From positions 30,417 to 94,416 of the IMG/VR virus record IMGVR_UViG_3300034072_002212: DNA of 64,000 bases; one strand, written 5' to 3'. Within the stretch, counting starts at the first letter, position 1; each line of letters starts with the position of its first letter. A program made the translations under genes and the position numbers. A model generated the notes under the pieces. The model was not told the DNA's origin. It worked only from the letters and a program-made list of their open reading frames with translations, and made no database searches. The stretch is from a virus. Its lineage: Duplodnaviria > Heunggongvirae > Uroviricota > Caudoviricetes. Positions 1 through 38,195 of the stretch are shown piece by piece.

Positions 1-292
1 GGAGACTGGAGCCCTTGGCTCCAAACTTCACTCCTGGAACTTGCGGATGGCTAATGTTTACGGTCCAGGTCTGGTCATCTTCTGCCTTGATCCCAAAGAC
101 GCACCCATGTGACTTGAACTTACTCACAAGCTCATGAGCTGTCTTGGTATCAGTGGAATAAGGCGGAAGTGCGACAAACTTCTTGTTCTTCATGTCGCGA
201 AGTTGATAGGCGTCGGTCTCGGTATCATGGATAACCACAACACCGAGAACCTTACGCGCTATTTCAGCATCCAGATCAGGACCAGGACGCAT
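1..292 (-). CDS. Hypothetical protein, N-terminal ~97 aa only; gene continues past the window start
   Basis: Minus-strand ORF with ATG at 292-290 overlapping the S21 stop (TAATG). Translation MRPGPDLDAEIARKVLGVVVIHDTETDAYQLRDMKNKKFVALPPYST... No recognisable motif. Confidence 0.35.
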   Translation of the reverse strand, partial: MRPGPDLDAEIARKVLGVVVIHDTETDAYQLRDMKNKKFVALPPYSTDTKTAHELVSKFKSHGCVFGIKAEDDQTWTVNISHPQVPGVKFGAKGSSL

Positions 293-555
293 TAGGCCGG
301 CTGACGGCGCAATGCCTTCTTCTGGCGACGAATCGCCTCCTGACGCTTCTTGCGACGAATCTGCCCCTTGGTCTCAACATACTCCTTGCGGCGCATATCG
401 CGGATAAGGCCTTCCTGCACCGCACGACGCTTCAGCGTCCTCATCGCAGAATCCAGATTCTTCAGAGCCTGCTCGGGAGTATGAGCTGGCTTGACTTCGA
501 CCGCAAGACCACGCTTGTGGATGTCGCGACCGTTGCCATTGTAGTGCTGTCCCAC
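292..555 (-). CDS. rpsU: Ribosomal protein S21-like
   Basis: The ORF has no ATG/GTG near the conserved S21 core other than the GTG at 555, and its first codon at 615 is TTG. The segment ...LAVEVKPAHTPEQALKNLDSAMRTLKRRAVQEGLIRDMRRKEYVETKGQIRRKKRQEA... aligns to the bacterial S21 pattern (ALRRFKR..K.G.L.E.RRRE.YEKP..RKR). The likely start is GTG at 555-553, preceded by AGGAGA 7 nt upstream. Confidence 0.6.
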   Translation of the reverse strand: MGQHYNGNGRDIHKRGLAVEVKPAHTPEQALKNLDSAMRTLKRRAVQEGLIRDMRRKEYVETKGQIRRKKRQEAIRRQKKALRRQPA

Positions 556-673
556 TGTGGGATCTCCTGTTGGTGTTAACTTTATTACTCTACTTATATG
601 ACCCCAAGAACTCAATATTCTGGTTGACGTCGTGTGACACTCTCGTTACGGAATTGCCCTGAAAGGAGAACCT

Positions 674-1003
674 ATGAAGCGAATTCTGTTGATTGCCGGA
701 GCGGCACTTGCCCTCTCGGCCTGTGATCGGATCCCCCAGAAGGTGGGCGAAGAGGTCCGCGGTGTCGAAATCGCTGACGGTGGTCGCGTCGACGACATGG
801 CCGGTGAACTGCACGTTACGATCCGCGAGATCGAGTCGGGGCAGAGCTGGGACGTGAATCTCGGCGAAGAGTGCTCGCAGTATCCGCTTCCGATGGGGCA
901 GAAGTTCCTCGCCCGCTTCGACAAGATGGCGGCCAAGGCAACCCCACAGAACGTCTCGGTCGAGCCCAACCAGCAGATGCTCTGGAATTACCTGTGCGGC
1001 TGA
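674..1003 (+). CDS. Small secreted lipoprotein (signal peptide with lipobox LSAC)
   Basis: ATG preceded by AAAGGAGA. N-terminus MKRILLIAGAALALSAC is a classic type-II signal. Mature region has two Cys (EECSQY...NYLCG). Confidence 0.55.
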   Translation: MKRILLIAGAALALSACDRIPQKVGEEVRGVEIADGGRVDDMAGELHVTIREIESGQSWDVNLGEECSQYPLPMGQKFLARFDKMAAKATPQNVSVEPNQQMLWNYLCG

Positions 1004-1326
1004 TCACCGGCACCCTCGCGGCTTTGCTGCTTGCCGGCTGCGGGGGCAATTCCTACAACCTCATCGGTCATGAAGTCCGCCAGGTCGAGGTCGTGAGCCA
1101 CAAGCCGCCCAAGCGGTTCTACGTGACGCTCAAAGATGTCCAGAACGGGCACGTGGAGGAAGTCTACGTTGCCAAGCGTTGCTGGGGCTTCGAGGACAAG
1201 GTCAAGCCCGGTATGCGCTTCATGACTCGCGTGGACATCTATCGCATCTCGAACGAAAAGAACGAGACTGTGGGCGAATCCATGGAGTTCAATTCGAGGC
1301 AGTTGAGCGACTACTTCTGCAGCTGA
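994..1326 (+). CDS. Small secreted lipoprotein, paralog of 674..1003 (lipobox LAGC)
   Basis: ORF 871..1326; plausible GTG start at 994 gives MRLITGTLAALLLAGCGG. The mature part parallels the upstream gene (EVRQVEVV...RFYVTLKDVQNGHVEEVYVAKRCWGFEDKVKPGMRF versus EVRGVEIA...ELHVTIREIESGQSWDVNLGEECSQYPLPMGQKF). It overlaps the upstream stop. Confidence 0.45.
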   Translation: MRLITGTLAALLLAGCGGNSYNLIGHEVRQVEVVSHKPPKRFYVTLKDVQNGHVEEVYVAKRCWGFEDKVKPGMRFMTRVDIYRISNEKNETVGESMEFNSRQLSDYFCS

Positions 1327-1345
1327 TTCTCCGCGAATCTTAGGG

Positions 1346-1381
1346 CCGTTCTCCACGAACTGTGGGGAGCGGTTCTTTGCG
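1346..1381 (+). terminator. Rho-independent terminator after the lipoprotein pair
   Basis: CCGTTCTCCAC-gaact-GTGGGGAGCGG hairpin (9/11 bp paired) followed by TTCTTTGCG. Confidence 0.5.
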
Positions 1382-1893
1382 AATCTTTGAATCAATGGTC
1401 GAAGTGAACGAGCGCAAGCGAGTGAATGCGGACTTGCAGTAGGTAGGAAAGTCACACCTTTATTCCCCCTACGAGTGACACGCTCAATAGTGTCACCCGA
1501 AGAGGGAATTCAGTGCTTGCAGTTAGAGGTTGTCAGCACACCTTGAAACTAGAGCAGAGTGGACTCTGCGCCGGGGTCGCCCTGTCGGCTTTTCATCTAG
1601 GAATTCTGGAGTAGCGGCGGTAACCTGATCACACGTTTCAAGTCGCATGGCCAGGTCTGTGAGTTCGAGGGATATCGAGAGCTCACATCCATTGGCGCCT
1701 GTTGTTTATCCTGGCGGCAACCTACGCTCAAGAGCGCCGGGGAATCGCACCCCAGTCAAAGATAGCCAGTCGCTCCAGCGGCTCATCCATTCCGTCTTCT
1801 TCCGGACAAGGGTTATGGCAAGGCTGGTATGAGGTGCCGTATTTACGGCTCTGATACTTGGGATAACGTACAGGACAACCCAGAGTCAATTGC

Positions 1894-2673
1894 TCAGGTT
1901 GGATTCTCAGGAAAATCTGCTTGGTAGAAGATGTCCTGGAAACGCTCAGCATATTCGTCCCAGCACTCGATTTTGGACGTTGCGAATGTAATCCTCTTAC
2001 CCGCCAAGAGCCAGCGGAACGTGTAGAGGGCAATCTCATCCTCAATGCTCATTAGCCAGTTGAACAGCCGATTGAGACGCTCGAGGTAGAGGACATTGTC
2101 CTTGCCGTATTTCTCATAGAGAACAACAATATTCGCCACGGCTTCCTGTGCGAGCTGGAAGCGTTGGATGGTGTCCATTTCAGGAAGCGGCATGCCTGTG
2201 AGCAGCAAGTCCACGGGTGTCTGCTCGATGCCTTGCTCTTCCGCGAGACTCTCGAGACGTTCTTCGAAGGTCGTCCCGTCCAGATACTCCACGGGCCACG
2301 GCCGGTGATCGATCGACTGGAACGTGTCTGCGCTGTAGCCCTCGCCGCCATATTCGAAATGCGGTTCCATGAAGGCCAGTCGCGCTTCGGTCTTCTCGTC
2401 GGCGTCGAACTCGATCTTTTTGACGTTGAAGAGATATTGGCAGGCGTAAAGCTGAACATCCTTGTTCAGACTGCCGAGCCAGAGGAACAGATTGTTGGCC
2501 CGTTCGTCGATACTCTTGCCTTCTGCCATGCGCTCGGCCAGCTTGTCGCCGGCGGCGTTCACGATCTTGACCTGCTGATCAAGCGAGAAGAGTTTCTTGG
2601 GAAACTCGCCTTTGAGGATCTTGCTGGTCTTGCTCACGTGAACTCCATTGTTAGCTTTCACTCTAGCTAACAC
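1894..2673 (-). CDS. Hypothetical protein (259 aa)
   Basis: Long clean ORF. No recognisable motif. Confidence 0.5.
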   Translation of the reverse strand: MLARVKANNGVHVSKTSKILKGEFPKKLFSLDQQVKIVNAAGDKLAERMAEGKSIDERANNLFLWLGSLNKDVQLYACQYLFNVKKIEFDADEKTEARLAFMEPHFEYGGEGYSADTFQSIDHRPWPVEYLDGTTFEERLESLAEEQGIEQTPVDLLLTGMPLPEMDTIQRFQLAQEAVANIVVLYEKYGKDNVLYLERLNRLFNWLMSIEDEIALYTFRWLLAGKRITFATSKIECWDEYAERFQDIFYQADFPENPT

Positions 2674-2687
2674 AGGTGCTCAGTTTG

Positions 2688-2876
2688 TCAACCAGCAAAG
2701 CCCTCATCAAATCCCATGTTCCAGTAGAGGTATTCCTCTGAATCCCGCTCGTAGGGATTACGGCTCATTGAGCCACAACCTAGCCGCAGGGCAACCCCAG
2801 CAAGCCAACCCTTGTGATGGGCTTCTTTGAGCTTCTGTGGGCTTGTTTCAGCCGAAAGTTGTGAACTCGAGGCCAT
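2688..2876 (-). CDS. rmf: Ribosome modulation factor (RMF)-like small protein
   Basis: ORF 2688..2891, probably starting at the ATG at 2876. KEAHHKGWLAGVALRLGCGSMSRNPYERDSEEYLYWNMGFDEG parallels E. coli RMF ERAHQRGYQAGIAGRSKEMCPYQTLNQRSQWLGGWREA (AH..G..AG.A.R...C..PY......W..G). Confidence 0.5.
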   Translation of the reverse strand: MASSSQLSAETSPQKLKEAHHKGWLAGVALRLGCGSMSRNPYERDSEEYLYWNMGFDEGFAG

Positions 2877-3007
2877 GTCGACTTCCAACAAAGGGCCGAC
2901 GGGTATCGGTCCGGGTGAGATTCAAGACTATATCAGTCCCTCGGAGGGCGACTCGGATTGCCTTGTCGCTCCTCTTCAGGATATCAGCTTCTACGGTTTT
3001 GCCGGTC

Positions 3008-3424
3008 TCAGTCGAGACGACCGAGCAGGTCTCCAAAGAGCTCTTGCGTGTCACCTTTCAGGGGTTCCTCATACTTGAACAAATGCCGGAGGGTATCCAG
3101 CAAATAGCACCGATCTGAGGTCTTGCCCTTCGAGCGATCCAGCATACCCTGGATCAGGAAGGTGACAATCTTGTGGTCGCTGCGGATCTTCTCGTCGGAG
3201 AGGTCCACGCCATGAGCAATCAGAGCCGCTTCAACTTGGCGGAACACGGGGTTCGGCCCCACCCCATGTGCGATCTTGTTGTTGATCGGAAGGCTGAGCA
3301 CTTCAGCTGGGCCAGCAGTTTTGGCCTCTACTCCCCCATTGTCGTTCTGGCTGCTGATTGGCAGCTCAGTCGTCAGAACTCCCTGAGCGGCGACCGGCCG
3401 CTCAAACATACGCACAACACCCAT
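3008..3424 (-). CDS. Hypothetical protein (138 aa)
   Basis: ORF in the same orientation as its neighbours. No motif recognised. Confidence 0.4.
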   Translation of the reverse strand: MGVVRMFERPVAAQGVLTTELPISSQNDNGGVEAKTAGPAEVLSLPINNKIAHGVGPNPVFRQVEAALIAHGVDLSDEKIRSDHKIVTFLIQGMLDRSKGKTSDRCYLLDTLRHLFKYEEPLKGDTQELFGDLLGRLD

Positions 3425-3755
3425 AGAACCTCAGGCTCCATACTTTGATTTGGAACGAGGATTGCGAAGCTTGCGACCTAGCATCCTGCTGCTCGCCACC
3501 CCCTCGTGTCGTGCTGCGATATCAAGCTACGAAAAACACCAACGCCTTACAAGCGAAATTGTTGCTTGGTGTAAGATTTTTTGCGCCTTTATGTCTCCAG
3601 TTTCTGTGGATAACTGGCTTCGACCGCTGAAATCACAGGCTTTTTGACAAAGACAGGTGTTTAGAAATCTTTGAAAACGGTCGTTTCAGGACGCTAAGAA
3701 CGTCAAAGACAGGAGACCCTCACGCAACATTATGTTACATGAGGGTCAGCTTGCT

Positions 3756-4286
3756 TTAGCCTTGAGATGGCTTCTTAGGCGCCGGTGTGATAATCGTGAA
3801 CAACTGGCGTTCACTGCGGGCTACCGGACGCTCGAACTTGAACTCACCCACTTCTCTGAGAAAGTCCTGCATCACGGATGCGCCAACGTCCAAGTGGCTG
3901 ATTTCACGGCCCTTGAACTTGATGATCACCTTGACCTTGTTGCCTTCTTCCAGGAACCCCTGGGCGCGCTTGGCCTTGACTTTCAGGTCATTACTGTCTG
4001 TGGTCGGTCGCAGCTGGATCTCTTTGAGTTCCACGCGGTTTTCGCGATTCTTCTTCGCGTTCTCACGTTCCTTGCGACTCTGATCATACTTGAACTTGCC
4101 ATAGTCCAGGATCTTGCAGATCGGAATACCGTTGCTGATGTTGATCGCGACGAGGTCAAGTCCGGCCTCACGCGCACGGCGCTTGGCTTCGAGAGTTGGA
4201 ATAACACCTAGCTGCTCACCGGTGTCGGCAATGAGACGAACCTCCCTCGCTCGGATTTGGTCGTTCACCGCGTAGTTAGAATTCAC
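3756..4286 (-). CDS. infC: Translation initiation factor IF-3
   Basis: GTG start. IRAREVRLIADTGEQLGVIPTLEAKRRAREAGLDLVAI...ICKILDYGKFKY...VELKEIQLRP matches IF-3 N- and C-domain signatures over the full 176 aa. Confidence 0.85.
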   Translation of the reverse strand: MNSNYAVNDQIRAREVRLIADTGEQLGVIPTLEAKRRAREAGLDLVAINISNGIPICKILDYGKFKYDQSRKERENAKKNRENRVELKEIQLRPTTDSNDLKVKAKRAQGFLEEGNKVKVIIKFKGREISHLDVGASVMQDFLREVGEFKFERPVARSERQLFTIITPAPKKPSQG

Positions 4287-4311
4287 AGACAGTCTTTCCT
4301 TTCAAATATAC

Positions 4312-4338
4312 GAGGGAGCCTATACGTCAGGCTCCCTC
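4312..4338 (-). terminator. Hairpin terminator between clpX and infC
   Basis: GAGGGAGCC-(9 nt)-GGCTCCCTC; on the minus strand it is followed by GUAUAUUUG. Confidence 0.45.
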
Positions 4339-4345
4339 GGGTCAA

Positions 4346-5602
4346 TTACTCATTCACCGCCTTGGGGTCAAAAACGACCAGCGGCTCACTCTTTCCTTCG
4401 ATGACATCCTTGGTCACACGTACGGTAGTCGCTCCCTGCTCCTTGAGGTCAGGAAGTTCATACTGGACCTTGATCAGACGCTTCTCAATCACGCTGCGGA
4501 GACCGCGGGCGCCTGTCTTACGGGTGATGGCATCCTTGGCAACTGCGCGAAGAGCTTCTTCGTCAAACTCCAGTGTGACGTTCTCCATCTGGAACATCTT
4601 CTGGAACTGCTTGACGAGGCTGTTCTTGGGCTCGGTGAGAACCGTAACCAGCTGAGTTTCGTCGAGTTCTTCCAAGTGCGTGATGACCGGGAGACGACCA
4701 ACCAGCTCAGGAATCAGACCGAACTTGGTGAGATCTTCAGGCTCAACAGTGGCAAGAAGCTTGCTGTTGTCCTTCTTCTCAGCTTCGCTCATCACACTGG
4801 CACCAAAGCCCATGCTGCCCTTGCCCTTGTTCTGACGCTTTGCGATGATCTCGTCCAGACCAACGAATGCGCCACCAACAATGAACAGGATGTTCTTGGT
4901 ATTGACCACAGCCATCTCCGCGTTGGGATGCTTGCGGTTACCAGTGACTGGGACGCGGACTTCGCTACCCTCAATGATCTTCAGCAGAGCCTGCTGAACA
5001 CCTTCACCCGAGACGTCACGGGAAATGCTCGCCGAGTCGCCGCGCTTGGCCTTCTTATCTACCTCGTCGAGGTAGATGATACCACGCTCTGCCTTGGCAA
5101 CATCATTGTCGCAGACCTGCAGGAGGCGCGTGATGATGGTCTCCACGTCATCGCCCACATAACCCGCCTCAGTGAGGCTCGTAGCGTCAGCGATGGTGAA
5201 GGGAACGTCCAGCAGCTTTGCGATGCTGCGGGCCATCAGGGTCTTACCGGAGCCCGTAGGGCCCAGCAGGAGGATGTTGGACTTCTCGAGCTCAACATCA
5301 TCGACAACCGGATTGGCGAGACGCTTATAGTGATTGTGGACGGCCACACTCATGACCATCTTGGCTGCGTCCTGACCAATAACATACTGATCCAGGAACT
5401 CACGAATCTGTCGTGGGCTGGGAATACCACCATCCTTGAGAGACATCTTGGTCTCTGCGTTGGTGTCTTCCTTGAGAATGTCCGCGCAAAGCTGGACGCA
5501 ATCGTTACAGATGAAAACATCTGGACCGGCGATCAATTTCTGGACTGCTTCCTGTGGCTTTCCGCAGAAGCTGCAGGTCAGATTTTTCTTCTTGTCACTC
5601 AT
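4346..5602 (-). CDS. clpX: ATP-dependent Clp protease ATP-binding subunit ClpX
   Basis: N-terminal C4 zinc finger (CSFCGK...CNDCV), Walker A GPTGSGKT and 418 aa length are all typical of ClpX. Confidence 0.9.
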
Positions 5603-5635
5603 TTACTCGACCTCAGAGTTCTCGGATACATCCGA

Positions 5636-5642
5636 TATTTAG
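5636..5642 (-). promoter_or_regulatory. T4-like late-promoter-like motif (CTAAATAT on the minus strand) ~30 nt upstream of the clpX start
   Basis: Minus strand reads CACCCACTAAATATCGG...GAGGTCGAGTAAATG. The same CTAAATA core recurs upstream of at least 8 other minus-strand genes. Confidence 0.4.
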
Positions 5643-5715
5643 TGGGTGTCGATCGCTACTCTGAGGCTCGGAGGCCACACCATGATAGTATGACCTCCGG
5701 TTGTGAAATTCACTA

Positions 5716-7167
5716 TTAAAGTCCTGGGCGCGCATTCTGCATTGCGATTGCCACCTGAACGATGTCGTTGACGATATCTGGGTTCATTTCAAGAACTTCA
5801 ATGATCATCTCCTTGGGGGAACGTGGATCGTCATCCTGTGGTTTGGGCTCTGGCTTCCAAGCGTTGATAGCTTCCTGTTGCTGCTTCAACTGCTCTTCCC
5901 ACTGACCAAGAAGTTCGCGTTCGTCGTTCAGTCGGGCTTCCATGGTGAGAAGCTGACTATGGGCCTGTTCAAGAGCCTCACGGTCCTCCGCATTTTGCGT
6001 CCTCTGAGCTTCAACGTCCTGCAGTTCTGCCTCAATCTCACTGGCAATTTCAGCACGGATCGTATCACGGTCTAGCTTGGACTCTTCCTCACCAATGAGG
6101 TTCAGACTCTCCTGGTGGTCTTCAAGCAAGTTGATGCCTTCACCCTCGCCCTCGATGATCGTGACGCCAGTGTCATCACTGATGAAACGAGCAGCGCGAT
6201 CCTCTTCGGGTGCGATACTTGCGCCTTCGCCCTCAATAGGAGTCATCTCGTCCAAGACGGCATCAGCTGGCTTCTCAGAGAATAGGTGCTCAGCGTAGGC
6301 GGCTTCCTTTTCCTTGATATCCTCTTGTTCCATGAGCTTACGCACATGGTCAACCCATTCGGGCTTCATTGTGTCAAAGACGTTCTGAGGGATATTGTCG
6401 CCAGTGACCAGCGGCTCCTCAGCCTTGCGCTTACGAGCCTCCTGGTAATCCTTGAGCGAGATGCTGCCAGCGATGAACAAGCTAAGAGCAAGCGGGTCGA
6501 AGGCGATCATGATGATCACGATGATGATGCGAACTGCGGACTCAGGATCCCAGCCAAACAATTCCGCGACATACTTGACCGGACCCAGCTTGGCCTCGAC
6601 TTCAGCACCCTGCGTCTTCAGCGGCACCAGCTTGGTGTTTAGGTCATTGATCGCCTTATTATTCTCGTCAATACGAGCCTGAATTGCCGCAGCTTCACGC
6701 CTCTGGGAATTAGCTGCGCGGAGGCCCTGACGACCGGAAGTCTCGAGACTCTTGTCCGTGATCCTGCTGATCTGGTCCATGCGCTTCATCAGCTGGTCAT
6801 TCTCGGCTTGCTTCTGCTTTAGCTGGGTCTCCAACTGAGCACTCTGGATCTCAAGACCGGCCTTTGGTGCCGCCTGCTCAAGGTGTCCCTTGCTCAGATA
6901 GCCATAAATGCCAAGACTCGTGATTGTCATGAGGGCTGCGATGAACACGCAGAAGAGCCCGCGGAAATACCACGGTGCGCGAGGATTGCGCCAGTTGCTA
7001 TGAACCCACTTGGTGGCTACGATCTTGCCAACTTCAAGAGTGCCAGCCATGATGACCACACCCCAGAAGGTAGCAGCGAACAACGCACCCATACCAGCCA
7101 AGGAGAACCAAGCGGCAACCGTGCTGATTGCCGCTGCGACAAAGAATATGAAGATGATGAATGCCAT
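5716..7167 (-). CDS. Membrane protein with N-terminal TM helices, long coiled coil and acidic C-terminal region (483 aa)
   Basis: N-terminal hydrophobic segments (MAFIIFIFFVAAAISTVAAWFSLAGMGALFAATFWGVVIMAG), a second TM region mid-protein, Q/E/K-rich heptad-like stretches, then a D/E-rich tail. Confidence 0.5.
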   Translation of the reverse strand: MAFIIFIFFVAAAISTVAAWFSLAGMGALFAATFWGVVIMAGTLEVGKIVATKWVHSNWRNPRAPWYFRGLFCVFIAALMTITSLGIYGYLSKGHLEQAAPKAGLEIQSAQLETQLKQKQAENDQLMKRMDQISRITDKSLETSGRQGLRAANSQRREAAAIQARIDENNKAINDLNTKLVPLKTQGAEVEAKLGPVKYVAELFGWDPESAVRIIIVIIMIAFDPLALSLFIAGSISLKDYQEARKRKAEEPLVTGDNIPQNVFDTMKPEWVDHVRKLMEQEDIKEKEAAYAEHLFSEKPADAVLDEMTPIEGEGASIAPEEDRAARFISDDTGVTIIEGEGEGINLLEDHQESLNLIGEEESKLDRDTIRAEIASEIEAELQDVEAQRTQNAEDREALEQAHSQLLTMEARLNDERELLGQWEEQLKQQQEAINAWKPEPKPQDDDPRSPKEMIIEVLEMNPDIVNDIVQVAIAMQNARPGL

Positions 7168-7245
7168 AGTGTGCCTCTGAGATATCTGGTAGTGATAAAG
7201 ACCGCCTGGACGGACTGTCTACTTATCACTACCAGATTGAGGCAA

Positions 7246-7668
7246 TTAGGCGAAGAGTGCCTTCAGCTTCTGCCAGAAGGTCAGCTTGGGAGCCGGGGTG
7301 AGGTCCGTCAGCCCATTGTAGCGGTCCAGGAACTTGTAGGAGATGTTCTTGGCACCGAAGGCCTTCAGCTTCTCGAATGCCATCTCTGGATCGAGGTCGC
7401 TGCAGGTGTAGATGTCGAATTCGATGAAAGGCTGATCGCACTCATCCCAGGTGTGAAGCACCATGTGGGAGGTGGTGATCAGAACGTCGGCAGTCATACC
7501 GCGGTTGCCCTCTTGCTCGCAATAAGCCGCGCTGGCCTTGCGAAGGACTTCCATACCCATGCCGTGAACGATGTCAGTGAGCCACTGCTCGACAAATCGC
7601 TCATCCTTCTTCAGGGGAGGATTGTCGACAGCGGCGTGAACAATTAGGTGCTTGTGAAGCTTTGCCAT
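7246..7668 (-). CDS. speH: Pyruvoyl-dependent S-adenosylmethionine decarboxylase (SpeH / class 1 AdoMetDC)
   Basis: HLIVHAA...ADVLITTSHMVLHTWDECDQPFIEFDIYTCSD-LDPEMAFEKLKAFGA aligns with the SpeH self-cleavage region (ESHLTIHTWPE...DLFTCGD..DP..AF). Confidence 0.65.
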   Translation of the reverse strand: MAKLHKHLIVHAAVDNPPLKKDERFVEQWLTDIVHGMGMEVLRKASAAYCEQEGNRGMTADVLITTSHMVLHTWDECDQPFIEFDIYTCSDLDPEMAFEKLKAFGAKNISYKFLDRYNGLTDLTPAPKLTFWQKLKALFA

Positions 7669-7754
7669 TGGTTACTCCTAATCAAAAGATCGCGCCTTGC
7701 GATAAGCGTGTCTCGGGAAGATTAGGATAACCGCTTCTTCCTCCGTAGCACTGT

Positions 7755-8306
7755 TTAGAAAAACTTTGCCGTAGCGGTGATATTTATCGGACTTGGGATC
7801 TTCTCATAGCCCTGTTGAGCAATGAGATCATTGGACTTTACGGGCTTGAAACCCGCCTCGCGATCCAACGACCACGTGATGTGGAAGGTCTTACCATCCG
7901 GGCGAACGGTTGTGCCGTCCACCTCGACCACCAATGCCTCGATGCCTGCTTCATCACAAGCGTAGCCCACCACACGTAAAGTGGAAGCTTCGGGCAAAGG
8001 CTGATCACTCGACACACCAAACTTATATGTGATATGGTGTCCGATGAACTCAGGGAACTTGGGTGGGAACACCTCGGCCAGAGCTGAACGCGAAGCCGCA
8101 CTCACCTCGAACGCTTGGTATCCCGCACGGGGCTTTGGGCCCTGCTCCATGAACTCTTTCGCTCGCAATCTGTCCTCCAATTGAGCATCTGATATGCAAC
8201 CAGCTGCGGTGTCTGTCAACCTTTCTGATAAATCATTCTGTATCCAGTGTGAAAATTGACGCTCTGGGTTCCTAAACCATATTGTAACACAAAGAACAAG
8301 GGTCAA
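7755..8306 (-). CDS. Hypothetical protein (183 aa)
   Basis: ORF only. Confidence 0.4.
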   Translation of the reverse strand: MTLVLCVTIWFRNPERQFSHWIQNDLSERLTDTAAGCISDAQLEDRLRAKEFMEQGPKPRAGYQAFEVSAASRSALAEVFPPKFPEFIGHHITYKFGVSSDQPLPEASTLRVVGYACDEAGIEALVVEVDGTTVRPDGKTFHITWSLDREAGFKPVKSNDLIAQQGYEKIPSPINITATAKFF

Positions 8307-8308
8307 CC

Positions 8309-10180
8309 ATGTCCAACAAGATTAAGAAACTCACAGATTATCAGCACGCCAGGCTCCGAACTGAGATGTACCTGGGTAGCCGTGCTCCACACACTCAGAC
8401 GATTCTCCAGATTGTGGATGGAAAGCCACAGCCGGTTGAGATGACATGGGTGCCAGCTCTCTACACGGCCTTTCGTGAGGTGCTCGACAACGCCCTCGAC
8501 GAGGTTATCGGCCATGGACATGGCAGCAAGATTAAGGTAACCTACGACGCAACGACACGCGAAATGAGCGTTGAAGACGACGGTCGTGGTATTCCTATCG
8601 CGTATGACGACGCTCATAAGATGCACCTCGCTACACTCGTTATGACAGAGGCACGAGCTGGTCGTAACTTCGAGGATCGCGGTGAGGTCGCAGGCACTAA
8701 CGGTATCGGTGCGAGCGTTGTGAACTTCTGCTCCGAGTATTTCAAGCTGGACATTCAGAAGGATGGTGAGCGTTTCCAGCAAGAGTTCACGCAGGGCAAC
8801 GCGGTCTTTGGTGATGAGCTACAGTTTGGCAAGGTCAAGCTGACCAAGAAGCAGGGACCCAACGGCACCAAGGTCACGTTCAAGCTTTCCAGCGAAGTCT
8901 TCCCAGATCTCAATCTCCCAGAAGAGTTCATTCGCTCGCGTGTCACTGAGGTGGCAATCTGTAATCCGCTGATCAAGATCTTCTACAACGGTGAGCAGAT
9001 CAAGGTGAAGCCTCGCCCAGAGCAGACTCTCTTCCCCGGTCAGAAGCCAATGGCCCTAGAGATCAAGGACGAGAACTTCCGTAGCCGCTTCTGGATTGTT
9101 CCCAACTGGACCACAGGTGGCGATCACGTCCACACCATTGTGAATAACATTCCTGCTTTCAACGGCGGCGTTCACATCGACACTTTCCGTCGCCTGTTCT
9201 ATGGTAACCTGCTGACTGCGCTGGAGAAGGAGAGCAAGCGTCGCAAGCTCAGCCCGAACCGCTCGGACGTCACTGAGGGTGTTCTGATCTACAACATCAC
9301 GAACATGCACGGTCCTAACTTCGACAGCCAGAGTAAGACTCGACTGATTAACGAAGAAGTGGGCAAGATCCTCAAGAACGATCTCGAGAATCCAGAGCTC
9401 TACAAGGACTTCATCAAGAAGAATCGCGACTGGATTGAGGAAATCTACAAGCGTTGTGCTGAGCGCACGATGAAGAAGGATGCCGCTGACATTGCGAAGG
9501 CGGCCAAGAAGAACCTTCGCAACAAGGTTCCTCGCCTCATGGACGCAACTGGTGGTGATCGCAGCAAGTGCATTCTCTTCCTAGCAGAGGGTGAATCGGC
9601 CATCAGCGGCATGGGTTCGGTTCGTGATCCAGACCTCCACGGTGGTCTTGGCATGAAGGGTAAGGTTCTCAACGTCAACGGCGAAATGCCCAAGAAAGTC
9701 ATTGAGAACAAGGAGCTCGCAGACATCATGAATTGTCTGGGGCTTGTCATTGGTCAGAAGGCCAAGCTTGAGGACCTGCGCTATGGCAAGGTCTATATCG
9801 CGCACGACATGGACCCTGACGGTCTGAACATCGGTGCGCTCTTGATCAACTTCTTCCACACCTACTGGCCAGAGTTGTTCGAGAATCCCACCAAGCCATT
9901 CGTTCACATTTTCCGCACTCCGTTCATCATCGCTGAGCGTGGCAAGTCCAGAAAGTACTGGTATGCCCATAACTATGGTGAATTCAAGCCGGAGGATTAC
10001 AGCGGCTGGACGATTACCCGCGCTAAGGGTCTGGGTACGCTGACTCGTGAAGACTGGGAATATTCGCTTGCGAACCCTGAGGTCTATCCGGTTATCGACG
10101 ATGGTAAGATGGGTGAGACTCTCGACTTGATCTTCAACAGCAAGCGTTCTGATGACCGCAAGGAATGGATTGGTCTATGA
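8309..10180 (+). CDS. DNA topoisomerase II large subunit (T4 gp39/gp60 fused type; GyrB-like ATPase + TOPRIM)
   Basis: GHKL ATPase motifs (EVLDNALDE, TNGIGASVVN), TOPRIM LFLAEGESA, 623 aa. Confidence 0.85.
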   Translation: MSNKIKKLTDYQHARLRTEMYLGSRAPHTQTILQIVDGKPQPVEMTWVPALYTAFREVLDNALDEVIGHGHGSKIKVTYDATTREMSVEDDGRGIPIAYDDAHKMHLATLVMTEARAGRNFEDRGEVAGTNGIGASVVNFCSEYFKLDIQKDGERFQQEFTQGNAVFGDELQFGKVKLTKKQGPNGTKVTFKLSSEVFPDLNLPEEFIRSRVTEVAICNPLIKIFYNGEQIKVKPRPEQTLFPGQKPMALEIKDENFRSRFWIVPNWTTGGDHVHTIVNNIPAFNGGVHIDTFRRLFYGNLLTALEKESKRRKLSPNRSDVTEGVLIYNITNMHGPNFDSQSKTRLINEEVGKILKNDLENPELYKDFIKKNRDWIEEIYKRCAERTMKKDAADIAKAAKKNLRNKVPRLMDATGGDRSKCILFLAEGESAISGMGSVRDPDLHGGLGMKGKVLNVNGEMPKKVIENKELADIMNCLGLVIGQKAKLEDLRYGKVYIAHDMDPDGLNIGALLINFFHTYWPELFENPTKPFVHIFRTPFIIAERGKSRKYWYAHNYGEFKPEDYSGWTITRAKGLGTLTREDWEYSLANPEVYPVIDDGKMGETLDLIFNSKRSDDRKEWIGL

Positions 10181-16286: not shown

Positions 16287-16523
16287 TTATCGGCTTTGGA
16301 GTTTCAGATACATGGCATAGCGGCGCTCGATCTTTTCGATCGCCTCGAGGTAGGGCTTTGCCGCTTCCTCCGCCGCAGCCTTTTTGGCGGCGTTCATTTC
16401 CAGCTTGAGTGTCTGGATTTGATCCCACATGGCCGTGATGGCCGAACCCTCGCTCAGAATCTCCTGTTCGGTGGACTCTGTGCTCTTCATCAGTTGCTTG
16501 CGGATATCCGCCAGAATGCTCAT
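16287..16523 (-). CDS. Small coiled-coil protein (78 aa)
   Basis: Ala/Glu/Lys-rich helical sequence. Translationally coupled to its upstream gene. Confidence 0.4.
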   Translation of the reverse strand: MSILADIRKQLMKSTESTEQEILSEGSAITAMWDQIQTLKLEMNAAKKAAAEEAAKPYLEAIEKIERRYAMYLKLQSR

Positions 16524-16975
16524 GCGTAGTTGACCTCAAAGCCACACTGGCGCAAGAGATCGATGCCCTGCATCATCTTGCGTTCCCAGACCATGGGCTG
16601 TTCGTTGCGTTCAAATTGGGTGAGCTCGACCACTTGGGTCAAGAGTTCTGCGTCCTCGACCACCTTCTTGGCCTGCGCTAGGCCGAAACCGGTCATAGCA
16701 CGGACCTCCTTGATCGCTTTGATCTTGAAGGAGACGTCATTGGAGCCTGCGCGATAACGCTCGGGATCAACGAGGCGGAAGGAGATCTTGTTGGTGGTCT
16801 GGTAGGTGCCCGAGAGCTTGTGGAGGATTACTCTATCCTTCCACGCTTTGCCCATAGGGCCCTCGAGAGCAGCCATGACCTCGGCGGACTTGTCAGCACC
16901 CATGGATAGCTTGACGGCCCGCAGAAACTGCTGGCTGATCTCGTCAAGCAACTGGGTATCTGGTTCGCCGTTCAC
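16520..16975 (-). CDS. Protein with a ribosomal L7/L12 C-terminal-domain-like region
   Basis: KIKAIKEVRAMTGFGLAQAKKVVEDAELLTQVV...GFEVNYA matches the L7/L12 CTD ([35 protein letters not shown]...GAEVEVK). The N-terminal ~80 aa are unrelated. Confidence 0.5.
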   Translation of the reverse strand: MNGEPDTQLLDEISQQFLRAVKLSMGADKSAEVMAALEGPMGKAWKDRVILHKLSGTYQTTNKISFRLVDPERYRAGSNDVSFKIKAIKEVRAMTGFGLAQAKKVVEDAELLTQVVELTQFERNEQPMVWERKMMQGIDLLRQCGFEVNYA

Positions 16976-20581: not shown

Positions 20582-20865
20582 GCAAAGGTCAGCTTGAACA
20601 GAGCCGCAAGGTCTGCGCGATCCTTGGGAAAGAAGAACGTTGTGATGTCCGGCTCGTCTGAACTGTTGCTCGACAACACAGTGAGACCGTGGCGCTTGTA
20701 GAAGTCCTCAATCTCGGGACCTGCGACCCACTGGAAAGTGTCCTCCCCAGTGGATCGCTTCGTGAAGTGCGCCTTGCCCTTGATGTCTACACCCATGGAC
20801 TCAGCTTGCTTCTGTTTGATGCTCTCCCAGAGAGCTTCATAGGCCGAATGGCGAGGATCGGTCAT
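20578..20865 (-). CDS. FKLTWGG-family small protein
   Basis: W-box DTFQWVAGP. C-terminus FFPKDRADLAALFKLTFA. ATG overlaps the cca stop (TAATG). Confidence 0.5.
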   Translation of the reverse strand: MTDPRHSAYEALWESIKQKQAESMGVDIKGKAHFTKRSTGEDTFQWVAGPEIEDFYKRHGLTVLSSNSSDEPDITTFFFPKDRADLAALFKLTFA

Positions 20866-21998
20866 TACTCGATCTCCAGCAGTTCTTCCTTGGTCTTCGT
20901 GAAGCGCGAGAACACCCAGGCATTCTCCAGCTTACGCAGACGCTGCCCCATAGCCGGCCCCGGCTTCATCCCCGAAGCCAGCAGGTCCTTCCCCGTTACC
21001 GGGAACGTCGGGACCACAAAGTTGCGGGCGTATTCAGCCAGCATCGGTTCCCCGGCGATCTCCAGCATGGACACGACATGATCCAGAGGGAACTTGTCGC
21101 GGGTCAGGTAGATCTCGACCTTCTCCTCGGTCCAGTTCACGCACCGGTTGCGGATCAGGTTGCGGACCTTGGCCTCTTCGGCCGAGCTCAGCTTCCAGAA
21201 CTGGAAGAACTTTTCCTCGTCGGTACTGGCCACCAGCGTCGACAGTGCCGCGACCGCATCATCCGAACGCGCCAGCTCAACAGGGTTGAACCGGAAGACT
21301 CCCAGCGAACGGTTGACGCGCGTCTTGAACATCGCGTCGACCACCCGAACCCGAGCCGGCATCGAGGGATCCAGCAGCTTTGACATTTCCAGCCAGAACC
21401 GCTCGACCGACACGACGTTCAGCTTGTCCAGGGTCTCGCCCACGCTGAACAGGTCCAGCGTGTCGTCGTCCATGGTCGCATCGAAGCGCGCCGCAAAGCG
21501 GAAGTAGCGCAGGATACGCAGGTAGTCCTCCTGGATTCGCAGCTCTGCGATCCCGACGAAACGGACGACCTTGTTCTTCAGGTCATCGCGTCCGCCAAAG
21601 TAATCGTAGACGTTGCCCTCGAAGTCCATCGACATTGCGTTGATGGTCAGGTCGCGCCGCTCTGCGTCCAGCTCGAAGGAGCGGGTGAACTCCACGGTCG
21701 CATGACGCCCGTCGGTCTCTGCGTCGATCCGCAGCGTGGTGACCTCGAACGGCTCCTTGTTGACCACGATGGTCGCCGTGCCGTGTGCGATGCCGGTTTC
21801 GATGAAGCCGAACTTGTTGGCCGTTGCGATCTCGCGCATCTCTTCCGGCGTTGCGTCGGTGCAGAAGTCCACGTCCTTGGGGACCACGCCCAGGATCGCG
21901 TCACGGACACAGCCACCCACGAAGCGGATCTCGAAGCCGGCGGCCTTGAAGGCATCGCCCAGCTTGCGCGTTTCCGTGGTCATCAGCTTGTCCAGCAC
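20865..21998 (-). CDS. cca: tRNA nucleotidyltransferase (CCA-adding enzyme) / poly(A) polymerase family
   Basis: Head-domain motifs GGCVRDAILG...DVDF and 377 aa length. Confidence 0.8.
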   Translation of the reverse strand: MLDKLMTTETRKLGDAFKAAGFEIRFVGGCVRDAILGVVPKDVDFCTDATPEEMREIATANKFGFIETGIAHGTATIVVNKEPFEVTTLRIDAETDGRHATVEFTRSFELDAERRDLTINAMSMDFEGNVYDYFGGRDDLKNKVVRFVGIAELRIQEDYLRILRYFRFAARFDATMDDDTLDLFSVGETLDKLNVVSVERFWLEMSKLLDPSMPARVRVVDAMFKTRVNRSLGVFRFNPVELARSDDAVAALSTLVASTDEEKFFQFWKLSSAEEAKVRNLIRNRCVNWTEEKVEIYLTRDKFPLDHVVSMLEIAGEPMLAEYARNFVVPTFPVTGKDLLASGMKPGPAMGQRLRKLENAWVFSRFTKTKEELLEIE

Positions 21999-34103: not shown

Positions 34104-34178
34104 TGGTGCTGTTGGGGAGGATTGAACTCCCGACTTCCTCATTACCAATGAGGTACTCTACCACTGAGTTACAACAGC
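34104..34178 (-). tRNA. tRNA-Thr (anticodon GGU), 75 nt with encoded CCA
   Basis: Folded by hand: acceptor GCTGTTG/CAACAGC, D-arm ACTC-AGTGGTA-GAGT, anticodon arm CCTCA-TTGGTAA-TGAGG, T-arm GGGAG-TTCAATC-CTCCC, discriminator A, CCA. Confidence 0.75.
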
Positions 34179-37428: not shown

Positions 37429-37564
37429 ACTGATCCTGTGTCACGCACAAAGTAGGCTTTCTCGAGATATCTATCGCGGGATTGGCGCTTCCCTATTAAT
37501 CCATCATTATCGCACTATACGACACGAGACCTTAACCGCGTATTGCGGTAAGGTTTTGATTCTG

Positions 37565-37768
37565 TAAAGAAAGCTAAAAGGCCCGTCCTGTTCCGCGGTG
37601 GAGCCCATACCGGTTTGGCAAACCCTAAGGGTTAAGCCGCAACTGCCATTGCTGGCTCGTTGTCGTTGACATTTCTGTCGTTGGCCTTTTCGGATCCGAA
37701 GATCCCAGGGAACCACCCCTCGTTGTCTCTCGCAGCCGTTCGCGCACACGTCGATCCTGGTTCGGCCC
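37565..37768 (-). ncRNA. ssrA: tmRNA coding piece (5' acceptor strand, tag reading frame, post-stop helix)
   Basis: 5' end GGGGCCGAACCAGGAUCGACG at 37768. Resume codon GCC at 37684-37682. Tag stop UAA at 37633-37631, followed by the AACCC-UUA-GGGUU hairpin. Confidence 0.6.
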
Positions 37769-37815
37769 CTTGCTTCAGGATTGCTCCCGATAAGGTTTCC
37801 AGTATTGCCACCTGG

Positions 37816-37880
37816 TTGGTGGAGCCGGCGGGTACTGCCCCCGCGTCCGCTGATTGCTATTGAGCTTTGGTCATCAACAA
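37816..37880 (-). ncRNA. ssrA: tmRNA acceptor piece (T-arm + 3' acceptor strand + CCA)
   Basis: The 3' end ...GCGGG-GGCAGUA-CCCGC-CGGCUCC-A-CCA lies at 37816. The last 12 nt (CCGGCUCCACCA) match the E. coli tmRNA 3' terminus. Confidence 0.6.
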
Positions 37881-37887
37881 CCCCGCC

Positions 37888-37916
37888 TTTATAGCGCGCT
37901 CGTAACCAAATGTCAA
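37888..37916 (-). promoter_or_regulatory. Sigma70-like promoter TTGACA-N17-TATAAA(GG) driving the tmRNA locus
   Basis: -35 at 37916-37911 and -10 at 37893-37888 on the minus strand, immediately after the PAAR stop codon. Confidence 0.5.
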
Positions 37917-37919
37917 CAG

Positions 37920-38195
37920 CTATCCTACAAAAACGTCGCTGCTGCCTTGTGCAACCTTGCTACCACAGGCCACGGGGTCAGATAACCTGCCCTGTCCGCG
38001 TCCATTGACGAAGACTGTGGATGATCCCCTAGCCAAAACACTTGGATGACCACTATGTGGTGCCCATTTATCGCCTTGCCTGTGAGCCGGCTTGCCGTTG
38101 ATAAAGACGTCAGGGCTTCCCTGAACGTTTGGACGTGGAGGAGCGCCGGGATGGCCCGTGCATTTGTCTCCCATACGGGCCGCTGGCTTACCCAC
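37920..38195 (-). CDS. PAAR-repeat protein (spike-tip, T4 gp5.4-like)
   Basis: N-terminus (M)GKPAARMGDKC...HPG...VFINGKPAHRQGD...VFVNG are PAAR repeats. GTG start overlaps the upstream stop. Confidence 0.75.
   Translation of the reverse strand: MGKPAARMGDKCTGHPGAPPRPNVQGSPDVFINGKPAHRQGDKWAPHSGHPSVLARGSSTVFVNGRGQGRLSDPVACGSKVAQGSSDVFVG

What the first reader, a model, noticed from the sequence alone, without database searches (positions are those of the whole stretch)
292..555. Phage-encoded ribosomal protein S21
The conserved S21 core (...AMRTLKRRAVQEGLIRDMRRKEYVETKGQIRRKKRQEA...) is present, with a GTG start and a good ribosome-binding site. S21 sits at the mRNA-binding platform of the 30S subunit. 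It is one of the few ribosomal proteins I recall being reported in some phages, where it is proposed to bias initiation. Here it accompanies IF-3, an RMF-like protein, an L7/L12-CTD-like protein, a tmRNA and ClpX. That is a dense translation-takeover kit.
Basis: partly seen in the sequence, partly recalled or inferred. Interest (0 to 1): 0.65.

Follow-up and report, generated by a model that had tools for sequence, protein, structure and literature searches.

The report
Jumbo-phage ribosomal protein S21 gene
This is a real, conserved copy of ribosomal protein S21 carried by a giant phage next to other translation genes, but phage S21 genes of this type, including the extra N-terminal tail, are already published, so the finding is correct and ordinary.

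Summary
Window 292..555 (minus strand) is an 87-aa ORF with a GTG start and an AGGAGA ribosome-binding site. It passes the curated cut-offs of Pfam PF01165 and TIGR00030 (S21) and matches the PHROG phage-S21 family. It is under strong purifying selection (dN/dS 0.05-0.13).

The window is phage DNA. It is syntenic with the ~470-490 kb Rhizobiaceae jumbo phages Phosso and Atu_ph07, and with 390-465 kb metagenomic contigs whose S21 is 83-92% identical.

IF-3, ClpX, a partial L7/L12 C-terminal-domain protein, an alpha-type two-piece tmRNA, tRNA-Thr and a CCA-adding enzyme are all present. The "RMF-like" ORF is a conserved gene but only a sub-threshold RMF match.

The protein has a conserved 16-residue basic/aromatic N-terminal extension. 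Phage S21, this kind of extension and the same gene kit are already described (Mizuno 2019, Al-Shayeb 2020, Chen 2022, the AP-J-162 paper). This is a new member of a known kind, and interest is low.

The more unusual thing is next door. Window ~1432..1832 (minus), between the IF-3 block and S21, holds a ~400-470 nt structured RNA. Covariation support is strong and there is no Rfam match.

The parts
292..555 (-). bS21 (rpsU-like) CDS, 87 aa, GTG start, pI 11.5. Residues 1-16 are the phage-type N-terminal extension, ~17-22 a beta-strand-like LAVEVK, and 27-84 the helical S21 core.
563..568 (-). Shine-Dalgarno AGGAGA, 7 nt from the GTG. AGGAGATCCC is invariant in the close orthologues.
587..628 (-). 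Conserved upstream element. The 17-mer GTCAACCAGAATATTGA (612..628) is conserved with at most a few changes in all 8 orthologous loci. TTGAGT (610..615) is followed after 17 nt by TAGAGT (587..592), a sigma70-like promoter candidate. The 17-mer also contains TTGAC reading towards the divergent lipoprotein gene. The promoter reading is inferred only.
2..292 (-). Downstream gene overlapping the S21 stop (TAATG). It is cut by the window end and is 117 aa in relatives. It gives a sub-threshold PF18066 Phage_ABA_S match and is probably translationally coupled to S21.
2688..2891 (-). Its motif HxGWLAG...NPY...W..GF.EG resembles RMF, but the match is below threshold.
3756..4286 (-). Translation initiation factor IF-3 (both domains).
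4346..5602 (-). ClpX ATPase with zinc finger.
16520..16975 (-). 151-aa protein with a partial L7/L12 C-terminal-domain match (residues 84-110).
20865..21998 (-). tRNA nucleotidyltransferase (CCA-adding) homologue.
34104..34178 (-). tRNA-Thr (GGT).
37577..37920 (-). Two-piece (permuted) alphaproteobacterial-type tmRNA.

Best explanation
The gene encodes a functional homologue of bacterial small-subunit protein bS21, carried by a ~400-470 kb jumbo phage. That phage is related to the Rhizobiaceae phages Atu_ph07, Phosso and AP-J-162, so the host is probably an alphaproteobacterium.

Shown here: it is an S21-family protein. It has been kept intact under purifying selection across a phage clade. 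It has a strong SD and a conserved promoter-like element. It sits in a conserved block with IF-3 and ClpX.

Inferred: during infection the protein is made and occupies the bS21 site on the 30S platform, beside the 3' end of 16S rRNA. bS21 is a loosely bound, exchangeable protein needed for mRNA/anti-SD pairing at initiation. The conserved 16-residue basic/aromatic N-terminal extension (MGxHYNGNGRDIHKRG) and the diverged first helix lie where the mRNA/SD-anti-SD duplex passes. Ribosomes carrying the phage protein, helped by phage IF-3, would therefore keep initiating, or initiate preferentially, on the phage's SD-led (AGGAG) mRNAs.
For: Family membership:
- Profile matches above curated cut-offs.
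- Alignment to solved bS21 chains over residues 33-85.
- pI 11.5 and 25 K+R in 87 aa.
- AF2 model with helices 27-47, 50-61 and 63-84.

Selection and expression signals:
- dN/dS 0.03-0.13.
- Start codon, SD and spacer are conserved, as is the TAATG coupling to the next gene.
- A conserved upstream element is present.

Phage origin and synteny.

The extension:
- It is conserved in the clade, with H4, R10, K14 and G16 invariant.
- About 18 further 50%-identity clusters match the profile at E<=1e-10, most of them across the extension.
- One of the extended homologues checked (P0079) sits in a phage-like contig.

SD use: phage genes are enriched in SD motifs (30% with a 5-mer versus 5% background). 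There is no aromatic residue after Y59, so this is not the anti-SD-sequestering Bacteroidetes type.

Literature:
- A pelagiphage bS21 is incorporated into E. coli 70S ribosomes (PMC6375957).
- Huge-phage S21s have N-terminal basic/aromatic extensions, proposed to aid competitive binding or preferential initiation (PMC7162821).
- The N-terminal helix of bS21 lies over the anti-SD, where mRNA binds (PMC9723584).
Against: There is no expression or ribosome-association data for this protein or for any member of this clade.

The only in-vitro test of a phage S21 gave nearly inactive heterologous ribosomes (~5% activity). That result fits inhibition or incompatibility as well as selectivity.

The host is not identified. 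The ClpX-based genome scan was uninformative. No genome of the 185,579 species representatives encodes this S21 type.

The extension is predicted with low confidence (pLDDT 45-64), and the fold search gave nothing.
Confidence: 0.7

Rival explanations
1. Plain supplementation. The phage S21 simply keeps the pool of this weakly bound, sub-stoichiometric protein full when host gene expression is shut down. This sustains bulk translation with no preference for phage mRNAs.
For: The phage uses ordinary AGGAG-type SDs. It also carries general-purpose factors that point to maintenance rather than selectivity: IF-3, tmRNA, a CCA-adding enzyme, and RRF and ThrRS in Phosso.
Against: A conserved phage-specific N-terminal extension and a diverged first helix and turn (ETKGQ instead of EKPS) are maintained across many clusters. 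That is not expected for a mere spare copy. The nearest cellular-type S21 checked (P0097, Magnetococcus) is only 37% identical over the 43-residue core.
Confidence: 0.2
2. Inhibitor or decoy. The phage S21 binds host 30S subunits and shuts down translation of host (or competitor) mRNAs rather than promoting phage translation.
For: E. coli ribosomes carrying pelagiphage S21 had ~5% activity in vitro (PMC6375957).
Against: That assay was heterologous and its authors attribute the loss to incompatibility. The phage itself depends on the same ribosomes and carries initiation and rescue factors. No toxin-like context is seen.
Confidence: 0.07
3. Extra-ribosomal RNA-binding role. The extended S21 binds a phage RNA, possibly the large structured RNA lying just upstream (window ~1432..1832, minus strand), forming an RNP. 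bS21 has been reported to associate with OLE RNA.
For: The RNA and S21 are syntenic on the same strand in every close relative, and only ~280-800 nt apart in L009, L010 and L011. A paper title and abstract report bS21 as an OLE RNP component (PMC12054373).
Against: The RNA also occurs in a second phage context with no S21 within the fragments. S21-encoding relatives Phosso, Atu_ph07 and L012 have no detectable copy near S21. There is no direct evidence of binding.
Confidence: 0.05
4. Not a phage gene: a bacterial rpsU on a bacterial or mis-assembled contig.
For: One 1.9 kb homologue-bearing contig is labelled 'Hymenobacter sp.' MAG in NCBI.
Against: The window contains phage structural and replication genes. 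Synteny with complete phage genomes is conserved. No species-representative bacterial genome encodes this S21 type. There is no rpsU-dnaG-rpoD-type bacterial context.
Confidence: 0.01

Closest known systems
S21 of Sinorhizobium phages Phosso (PV764938, annotated '30S ribosomal protein S21') and AP-J-162 (gp532), and Agrobacterium phage Atu_ph07 (AUZ95452, 'hypothetical protein')
   Same: The same extended S21 type (48-54% identity by alignment and tblastn, N-terminal H/K/G motif, ETKGQ turn). In Phosso, the same gene neighbourhood (topoisomerase, ClpX, IF-3 ... S21). The same kit is described for AP-J-162: S21, L7/L12, IF-3, ClpX, tmRNA.
   Different: About half the residues differ. The window phage has 54% GC versus 37-47%. 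The window clade has a 6-residue insertion after the first strand. It also has a large structured RNA upstream of S21 that was not detected near S21 in Phosso or Atu_ph07.
Huge-phage rpS21 with N-terminal extensions (Al-Shayeb et al. 2020, Nature 578:425)
   Same: [quoted passage not shown] The same proposed mechanism. A 90%-identical orthologue lies on a 389 kb NCBI contig, GCA_902726455.1.
   Different: Nothing essential. This is another sequence of that class.
Pelagibacter phage HTVC008M bS21 (Mizuno et al. 2019)
   Same: A phage bS21 of an alphaproteobacterial host. It is the only phage S21 shown experimentally to enter 70S ribosomes.
   Different: The pelagiphage protein is 67 aa and host-like (54% identity to the Pelagibacter protein), with no long N-terminal extension. 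The window protein is 87 aa and belongs to a distinct, extension-bearing lineage.
Bacteroidetes-phage bS21 (Chen et al. 2022) and Flavobacterium bS21
   Same: A phage S21 proposed to substitute into host ribosomes. Its divergence is concentrated in the N-terminal helix.
   Different: Those proteins keep the Tyr54-type aromatic residue that sequesters the anti-SD, sit among capsid genes and serve SD-less hosts. The window protein has no aromatic residue after Y59, sits among translation and replication genes, and the phage uses SDs.
Cellular bS21 (E. coli, P. aeruginosa and A. baumannii chains in the PDB; Magnetococcus S21)
   Same: The core from residue 33 to 85 aligns without gaps to residues 11-63 of solved bS21. 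It is 37% identical to a Magnetococcus S21 over 43 residues.
   Different: A 22-residue offset at the N-terminus (16-aa extension plus ~6-aa insertion). ETKGQ replaces the near-universal EKPS/T turn.

Membership tests
bS21 (Pfam PF01165 / TIGR00030 S21p) | Profile match above the curated gathering/trusted cut-off | tested here: met
   PF01165 39.4 bits vs 27. TIGR00030 43.9 bits vs 28.95.
bS21 (Pfam PF01165 / TIGR00030 S21p) | Small (about 55-90 aa), very basic protein | tested here: met
   87 aa, pI 11.5, 25 K+R vs 9 D+E.
bS21 (Pfam PF01165 / TIGR00030 S21p) | Helical S21 architecture comparable to solved bS21 | tested here: inconclusive
   The AF2 model gives helices 27-47, 50-61 and 63-84, mean pLDDT 77.5. 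The sequence aligns to solved chains. Foldseek against the PDB found nothing significant, as expected for an extended rRNA-dependent fold.
bS21 (Pfam PF01165 / TIGR00030 S21p) | Physical component of the 30S subunit platform | not testable with these tools
   Needs ribosome purification with mass spectrometry, or cryo-EM.
Phage-encoded S21 with N-terminal extension (Al-Shayeb 2020) | Encoded in a phage genome | tested here: met
   Phage hallmark genes in the window. Synteny with Phosso and with 390-465 kb viral contigs.
Phage-encoded S21 with N-terminal extension (Al-Shayeb 2020) | [quoted passage not shown] | tested here: met
   16 residues, MGQHYNGNGRDIHKRG, with 5 K/R/H and Y5. H4, R10, K14 and G16 are invariant. 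There is a 22-residue offset to solved bS21.
Anti-SD-sequestering bS21 of Bacteroidia | Aromatic residue at the Tyr54-equivalent position in the C-terminal helix | tested here: not met
   No F/Y/W after Y59 in the sequence. Position 76, equivalent to residue 54 of the 71-aa bS21 chains by the HMMER offset, is an invariant Arg. No direct alignment to the F. johnsoniae protein was made.
Ribosome modulation factor (PF04957), for ORF 2688..2891 | Profile match above the cut-off | tested here: inconclusive
   No hit for the window protein at E<=0.1. 3 of 6 orthologues hit PF04957 at best E 0.037. The profile search of the PDB found no RMF. phmmer with E. coli RMF (sequence recalled from memory) gave E 0.035.
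Ribosomal protein L7/L12 (PF00542 CTD), for ORF 16520..16975 | Full C-terminal domain, plus the N-terminal dimerisation/L10-binding domain | tested here: not met
   33 bits (cut-off 25.9), but only profile positions 12-38 of 67, at residues 84-110 of 151. No N-terminal domain match. It is L12-CTD-like, not a full bL12.

The most novel reading that the evidence does not exclude
The extended phage S21 may not be just a ribosome substitute. It could work together with the neighbouring, previously unclassified ~400-470 nt structured RNA (window ~1432..1832, minus strand) that sits between the IF-3 block and S21 throughout this phage clade. The RNA might be a scaffold or sponge that loads or sequesters S21, or part of a phage RNP acting on host ribosomes.
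Probability: 0.06. Interest if true: 0.75.

Novelty: new member of a known kind. Interest (0 to 1): 0.2.

Why it matters
The finding confirms that this giant-phage lineage keeps its own copy of an initiation-critical ribosomal protein, together with IF-3, tmRNA and other translation parts. This fits the established picture that huge phages remodel host translation. It adds no new principle, because the gene class, its N-terminal extension and the gene kit are already published.

There are two points of practical value. First, cultured relatives (Phosso, Atu_ph07, AP-J-162) carry the same extended S21 type, so the long-standing hypothesis of selective initiation could be tested genetically there. 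Second, the inspection exposed an unclassified large structured RNA beside the gene, which deserves its own study.

Tried and rejected
- Megablast of window 1-8000 against GenBank phages found no match. Only protein-level relatives exist.
- An exact look-up of the 99%-identical JGI protein P0002 was not on record.
- A scan of 185,579 species-representative genomes for this S21 type found none. The one extra scan, spent on ClpX to guess the host, returned only pattern-limited distant hits (Desulfobulbaceae, Leptotrichia, planctomycete at 53-58%) and says nothing about the host.
- Foldseek of the AF2 model against the PDB was uninformative.
- I tested whether the conserved 17-mer upstream of S21 is a general phage promoter motif. 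It is not: it is effectively unique in the window.
- RMF identity of ORF 2688..2891 was tested three ways and stayed sub-threshold.
- For the neighbouring RNA:
  - There was no Rfam 15 match even at E<=10.
  - There was no blastn match in GenBank phages.
  - The covariance model found no copy near S21 in Phosso, Atu_ph07 or L012.
  - The ORFs preceding the RNA in the two genomic contexts are not homologous (hhalign probability 0.1%). A fixed protein partner immediately upstream is therefore not supported.
- A first hhalign run failed because of my own frame error and was repeated.

Full report
**1. The observation**

Window 292..555 is an ORF on the minus strand. GTG is at 555..553 and TAA at 294..292, giving 87 codons.

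An AGGAGA Shine-Dalgarno lies at 568..563, 7 nt before the GTG. A longer reading from a TTG at 615 is possible mechanically, but comparison rejects it:
- All 58 database homologues are 86-91 aa and start at the same MG.HYNG.
- One orthologue has ATG at exactly this codon.
- AGGAGATCCC upstream is invariant in the close orthologous loci, while the flanks diverge.

**2. Is it S21?**

The profile evidence is clear:
- Pfam PF01165 scores 39.4 bits against a gathering score of 27.
- The TIGR00030 equivalog scores 43.9 bits against 28.95.
- PHROG 21469, 'ribosomal protein S21', matches at E 3.4e-7.
- phmmer against the PDB returns 24 distinct bS21/bS21m chains. Residues 33-85 align without gaps to residues 11-63 of 71-aa bacterial bS21.

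The protein has pI 11.5. AlphaFold predicts helices at 27-47, 50-61 and 63-84. Foldseek found nothing, which is unsurprising for a small extended protein whose shape depends on rRNA.

The gene is under strong purifying selection. Nei-Gojobori dN/dS is 0.03-0.13 against seven orthologues, at dS 0.7-1.6.

**3. Is it phage?**

The window (54% GC) encodes:
- both subunits of a T4-type topoisomerase II, RNR large and small subunits, DnaB and a primase;
- a CCA-adding enzyme;
- virion structural proteins.

There is no nucleotide-level match in GenBank phages. By tblastn, however, the S21 matches only three records: Sinorhizobium phage Phosso (469 kb) and two records of Agrobacterium phage Atu_ph07 (490 kb).

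In Phosso the gene order is topoisomerase subunits, ClpX, IF-3, a few small genes, then S21. This is the order in the window.

Closer relatives have S21 at 83-92% identity. They lie on a 389 kb NCBI contig and on IMG/VR contigs of 416-465 kb with the same order. The window therefore comes from an uncultivated jumbo phage of the Atu_ph07/Phosso group.

An alphaproteobacterial host is inferred from two things. The hosts of the cultured relatives are Rhizobiaceae, and the phage carries an alpha-type two-piece tmRNA. The host was not shown directly, and my attempt via ClpX was uninformative.

**4. The accompanying 'kit'**

| Feature | Coordinates (minus strand) | Result |
|---|---|---|
| IF-3 | 3756..4286 | Confirmed |
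| ClpX | 4346..5602 | Confirmed |
| tmRNA | 37577..37920 | Passes Rfam gathering scores for RF01849 and RF04321; ARAGORN missed it |
| tRNA-Thr | 34104..34178 | Present |
| CCA-adding enzyme | 20865..21998 | Present |
| L7/L12-like protein | 16520..16975 | Above the Pfam cut-off, but only 27 residues of the C-terminal domain and no N-terminal domain |
| 'RMF-like' ORF | 2688..2891 | Real conserved gene (57-73% identity in relatives); only a sub-threshold PF04957 match in 3 of 6 orthologues; no RMF match in the PDB |

The L7/L12-like protein should not be called a ribosomal protein L7/L12.

**5. What is special about the protein**

Relative to solved bS21 there is a 22-residue N-terminal offset. 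Comparison with intermediate homologues shows this is two separate changes:
- a 16-residue extension, MGQHYNGNGRDIHKRG, placed before the first strand (LAVEVK);
- a ~6-residue insertion after that strand.

In the clade, H4, R10, K14 and G16 are invariant.

An exhaustive HMMER search of 1.84 billion representatives found 601 relatives at E<=1e-3. About 18 clusters at E<=1e-10 mostly match the profile across the extension. They share the motif M-x-x-(K)-H-x(5-9)-[KR]-[KR]-G-[LM]-[ST]-V and an E[TS]KGQ turn in place of the cellular EKPS. One extended homologue that I looked up (P0079) lies in a phage-like contig.

The highest-ranked hits without the extension look like NNVD-type S21s. One of these, P0097, is annotated as Magnetococcus S21 and is 37% identical over 43 residues.

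There is no aromatic residue after Y59. The protein therefore lacks the Tyr54-type residue with which Bacteroidia bS21 sequesters the anti-SD. Consistent with this, the phage's own genes are enriched in AGGAG-type SDs.

**6. Regulation signals (inferred)**

The S21 stop overlaps the start of the next gene (TAATG). That gene is a 117-aa protein with a sub-threshold PF18066 match. The arrangement is conserved in most close relatives.

Upstream, a 17-mer (GTCAACCAGAATATTGA, 612..628) is conserved with at most a few changes in all eight loci compared. It is effectively unique in the window. It carries TTGA/TTGAC boxes facing both ways. On the S21 side, TAGAGT follows 17 nt later. I read this as a divergent sigma70-like promoter region, but this is a consensus resemblance only.

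**7. Mechanism**

Shown: this is a conserved, selected phage S21 homologue with expression signals, sitting in a translation-gene block.

Established knowledge:
- bS21 sits on the 30S platform at the 3' end of 16S rRNA and is needed for initiation on natural mRNAs.
- Its N-terminal helix lies over the anti-SD (PMC9723584).
- A pelagiphage bS21 enters E. coli 70S ribosomes (PMC6375957).

Inferred: the window protein replaces or complements host bS21. Its basic/aromatic extension contacts the mRNA or the SD duplex and favours, or sustains, phage initiation together with phage IF-3. This is exactly the hypothesis of Al-Shayeb et al. (PMC7162821).

The rivals cannot be excluded computationally. 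They are ranked in the report sections: non-selective supplementation, an inhibitory decoy, and an extra-ribosomal RNA-binding role.

**8. Comparison with the literature and novelty**

- Phage bS21 was reported in 2019.
- Huge-phage S21s with N-terminal basic/aromatic extensions, alongside IF-3, L7/L12 and tmRNA, were reported in 2020.
- 900 bS21-encoding phage genomes had been surveyed by 2022.
- The AP-J-162 paper lists S21, L7/L12, IF-3, ClpX next to topoisomerase, and a tmRNA in a cultured relative.
- A 99%-identical protein is already labelled 'ribosomal protein S21' in JGI.

The finding is therefore correct but ordinary: a new member of a known kind.

**9. Noticed while checking: an unclassified structured RNA**

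The ~570-nt ORF-free stretch between the 259-aa ORF (1894..2673, minus) and the convergent lipoprotein genes is conserved at 68-84% identity in all close relatives.

Evidence that it is a structured RNA:
- Alignments show invariant blocks separated by stems that change sequence but keep pairing.
- RNAalifold on nine sequences predicts 66 pairs, 30 of them with double compensatory changes.
- 93.7% of cells are paired, against 39-46% when partners are slid by 1-3 columns.
- The covariation score is 0.43 against ~0.09, and 0 of 500 shuffles reach the observed values.
- Invariant G-U pairs place the RNA on the window's minus strand.
- The minimum-free-energy z-score is -3.1.

The RNA is not classified by the resources I could query. 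No Rfam 15 family matches even at E<=10, and GenBank phages give no blastn match.

A covariance model of the 3' 184 nt (R1) gives the following:
- It finds the RNA at 141-178 bits for full-length matches in this clade.
- It also finds it in a second group of viral contigs, where it follows an unrelated 275-aa ORF and precedes an RNase H-like gene.
- It does not find it within the fetched stretches around S21: 20 kb either side in Phosso, ~15 kb on one side in Atu_ph07, and 5 kb either side in L012.

Pattern scans of IMG/VR and JGI metagenomes give only about 15 distinct contigs.

In L009, L010 and L011 the RNA lies directly upstream of S21 on the same strand. Its function is unknown. A link to S21 is speculative.

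It may already be among the unnamed candidates of large-scale viral RNA screens (for example PMC10690425). I could not check this.

Noticed in passing
window ~1432..1832 (core; conserved from ~1400 to ~1895), minus strand. Orthologous copies include L003 8255-8692, L006 3264-3730, L008 3954-4394, L009 4215-4671, L010 3621-4017 and L011 3749-4146. A second context is seen at L024 469-945(-), L025 433-889, L027 ~4950-5530 and L032 ~8400-8961.: A large (~400-470 nt) conserved structured RNA with strong covariation. 30 of 66 predicted pairs show double compensatory changes in 9 sequences. 93.7% of cells are paired versus ~40-46% in slid controls, and 0 of 500 shuffles reach the observed values. 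There is no Rfam 15 match even at E<=10 and no match in GenBank phages. Invariant blocks include CCGGAAGAAGACGGRATGG, CGACA..GACCCCG, CCTCTAACWGCAAG, GGGGGATAAAGGTGTG and CCTACWGCAAG. A loop, ACUUGAAA, may pair with one of the CAAG blocks to form a pseudoknot. The RNA lies between the IF-3 block and S21 in every close relative. It also occurs in another phage context without S21 nearby. Function unknown; this looks like a candidate new RNA class.
   Followed up: yes
window 587..628, minus strand: A 17-mer, GTCAACCAGAATATTGA, is conserved with at most a few changes upstream of S21 in all 8 orthologous loci, while the flanks diverge. It is essentially unique in the window. It contains back-to-back TTGAC/TTGA boxes, with TAGAGT 17 nt downstream on the S21 side. 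This is a candidate divergent promoter or operator for S21 and the opposite-strand lipoprotein gene.
   Followed up: partly
window 2..294, minus strand: The S21 stop and the next gene's start overlap (TAATG), conserved in most close relatives. The downstream 117-aa protein has a just-sub-threshold PF18066 (Phage ABA sandwich) match. This suggests translational coupling of S21 to a gene of unknown function.
   Followed up: partly
window 2688..2891, minus strand: A small ORF with an RMF-like motif (HxGWLAG...NPY...W..GF.EG) is conserved at 57-73% identity in several relatives. No tblastn match was found in L003, L006 or L007. It reaches PF04957 only at E>=0.037.
   Followed up: partly
window 37577..37920, minus strand: A two-piece alpha-type tmRNA is detected by Rfam (84-85 bits) but missed by ARAGORN. 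A mechanical 80-aa ORF (37507..37749) overlaps it and is probably spurious. A PAAR-motif protein gene (37920..38195) abuts it.
   Followed up: no
window 1894..2673, minus strand: A 259-aa ORF with no Pfam or PHROG match ends exactly where the structured RNA begins. It is conserved (31-51% identity) in all close relatives. The ORF preceding the RNA in the second context (275 aa, L027 4050-4880; L032 7465-8292) is unrelated to it.
   Followed up: partly
window 7246..7668, minus strand: An S-adenosylmethionine decarboxylase-family gene (PF02675, 59.7 bits) sits in the interval between ClpX and the topoisomerase genes. It is also present in the 389 kb relative.
   Followed up: no
window 1342..1376: A perfect 15-bp hairpin (GGGCCGUUCUCCACG...UGGGGAGCGGUUC) lies just after the lipoprotein genes, followed by UUCUUUG on the plus strand. 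It is likely the terminator of the plus-strand lipoprotein operon, facing the 3' end of the structured RNA.
   Followed up: no
window 674..1326, plus strand: Two small predicted lipoprotein genes (signal peptide plus Cys lipobox) are inserted on the opposite strand between the RNA and S21. They are present in some relatives (L003, L006, L007, L008), while no match was found in L009, L010 or L011. This spot is therefore a variable insertion point.
   Followed up: partly
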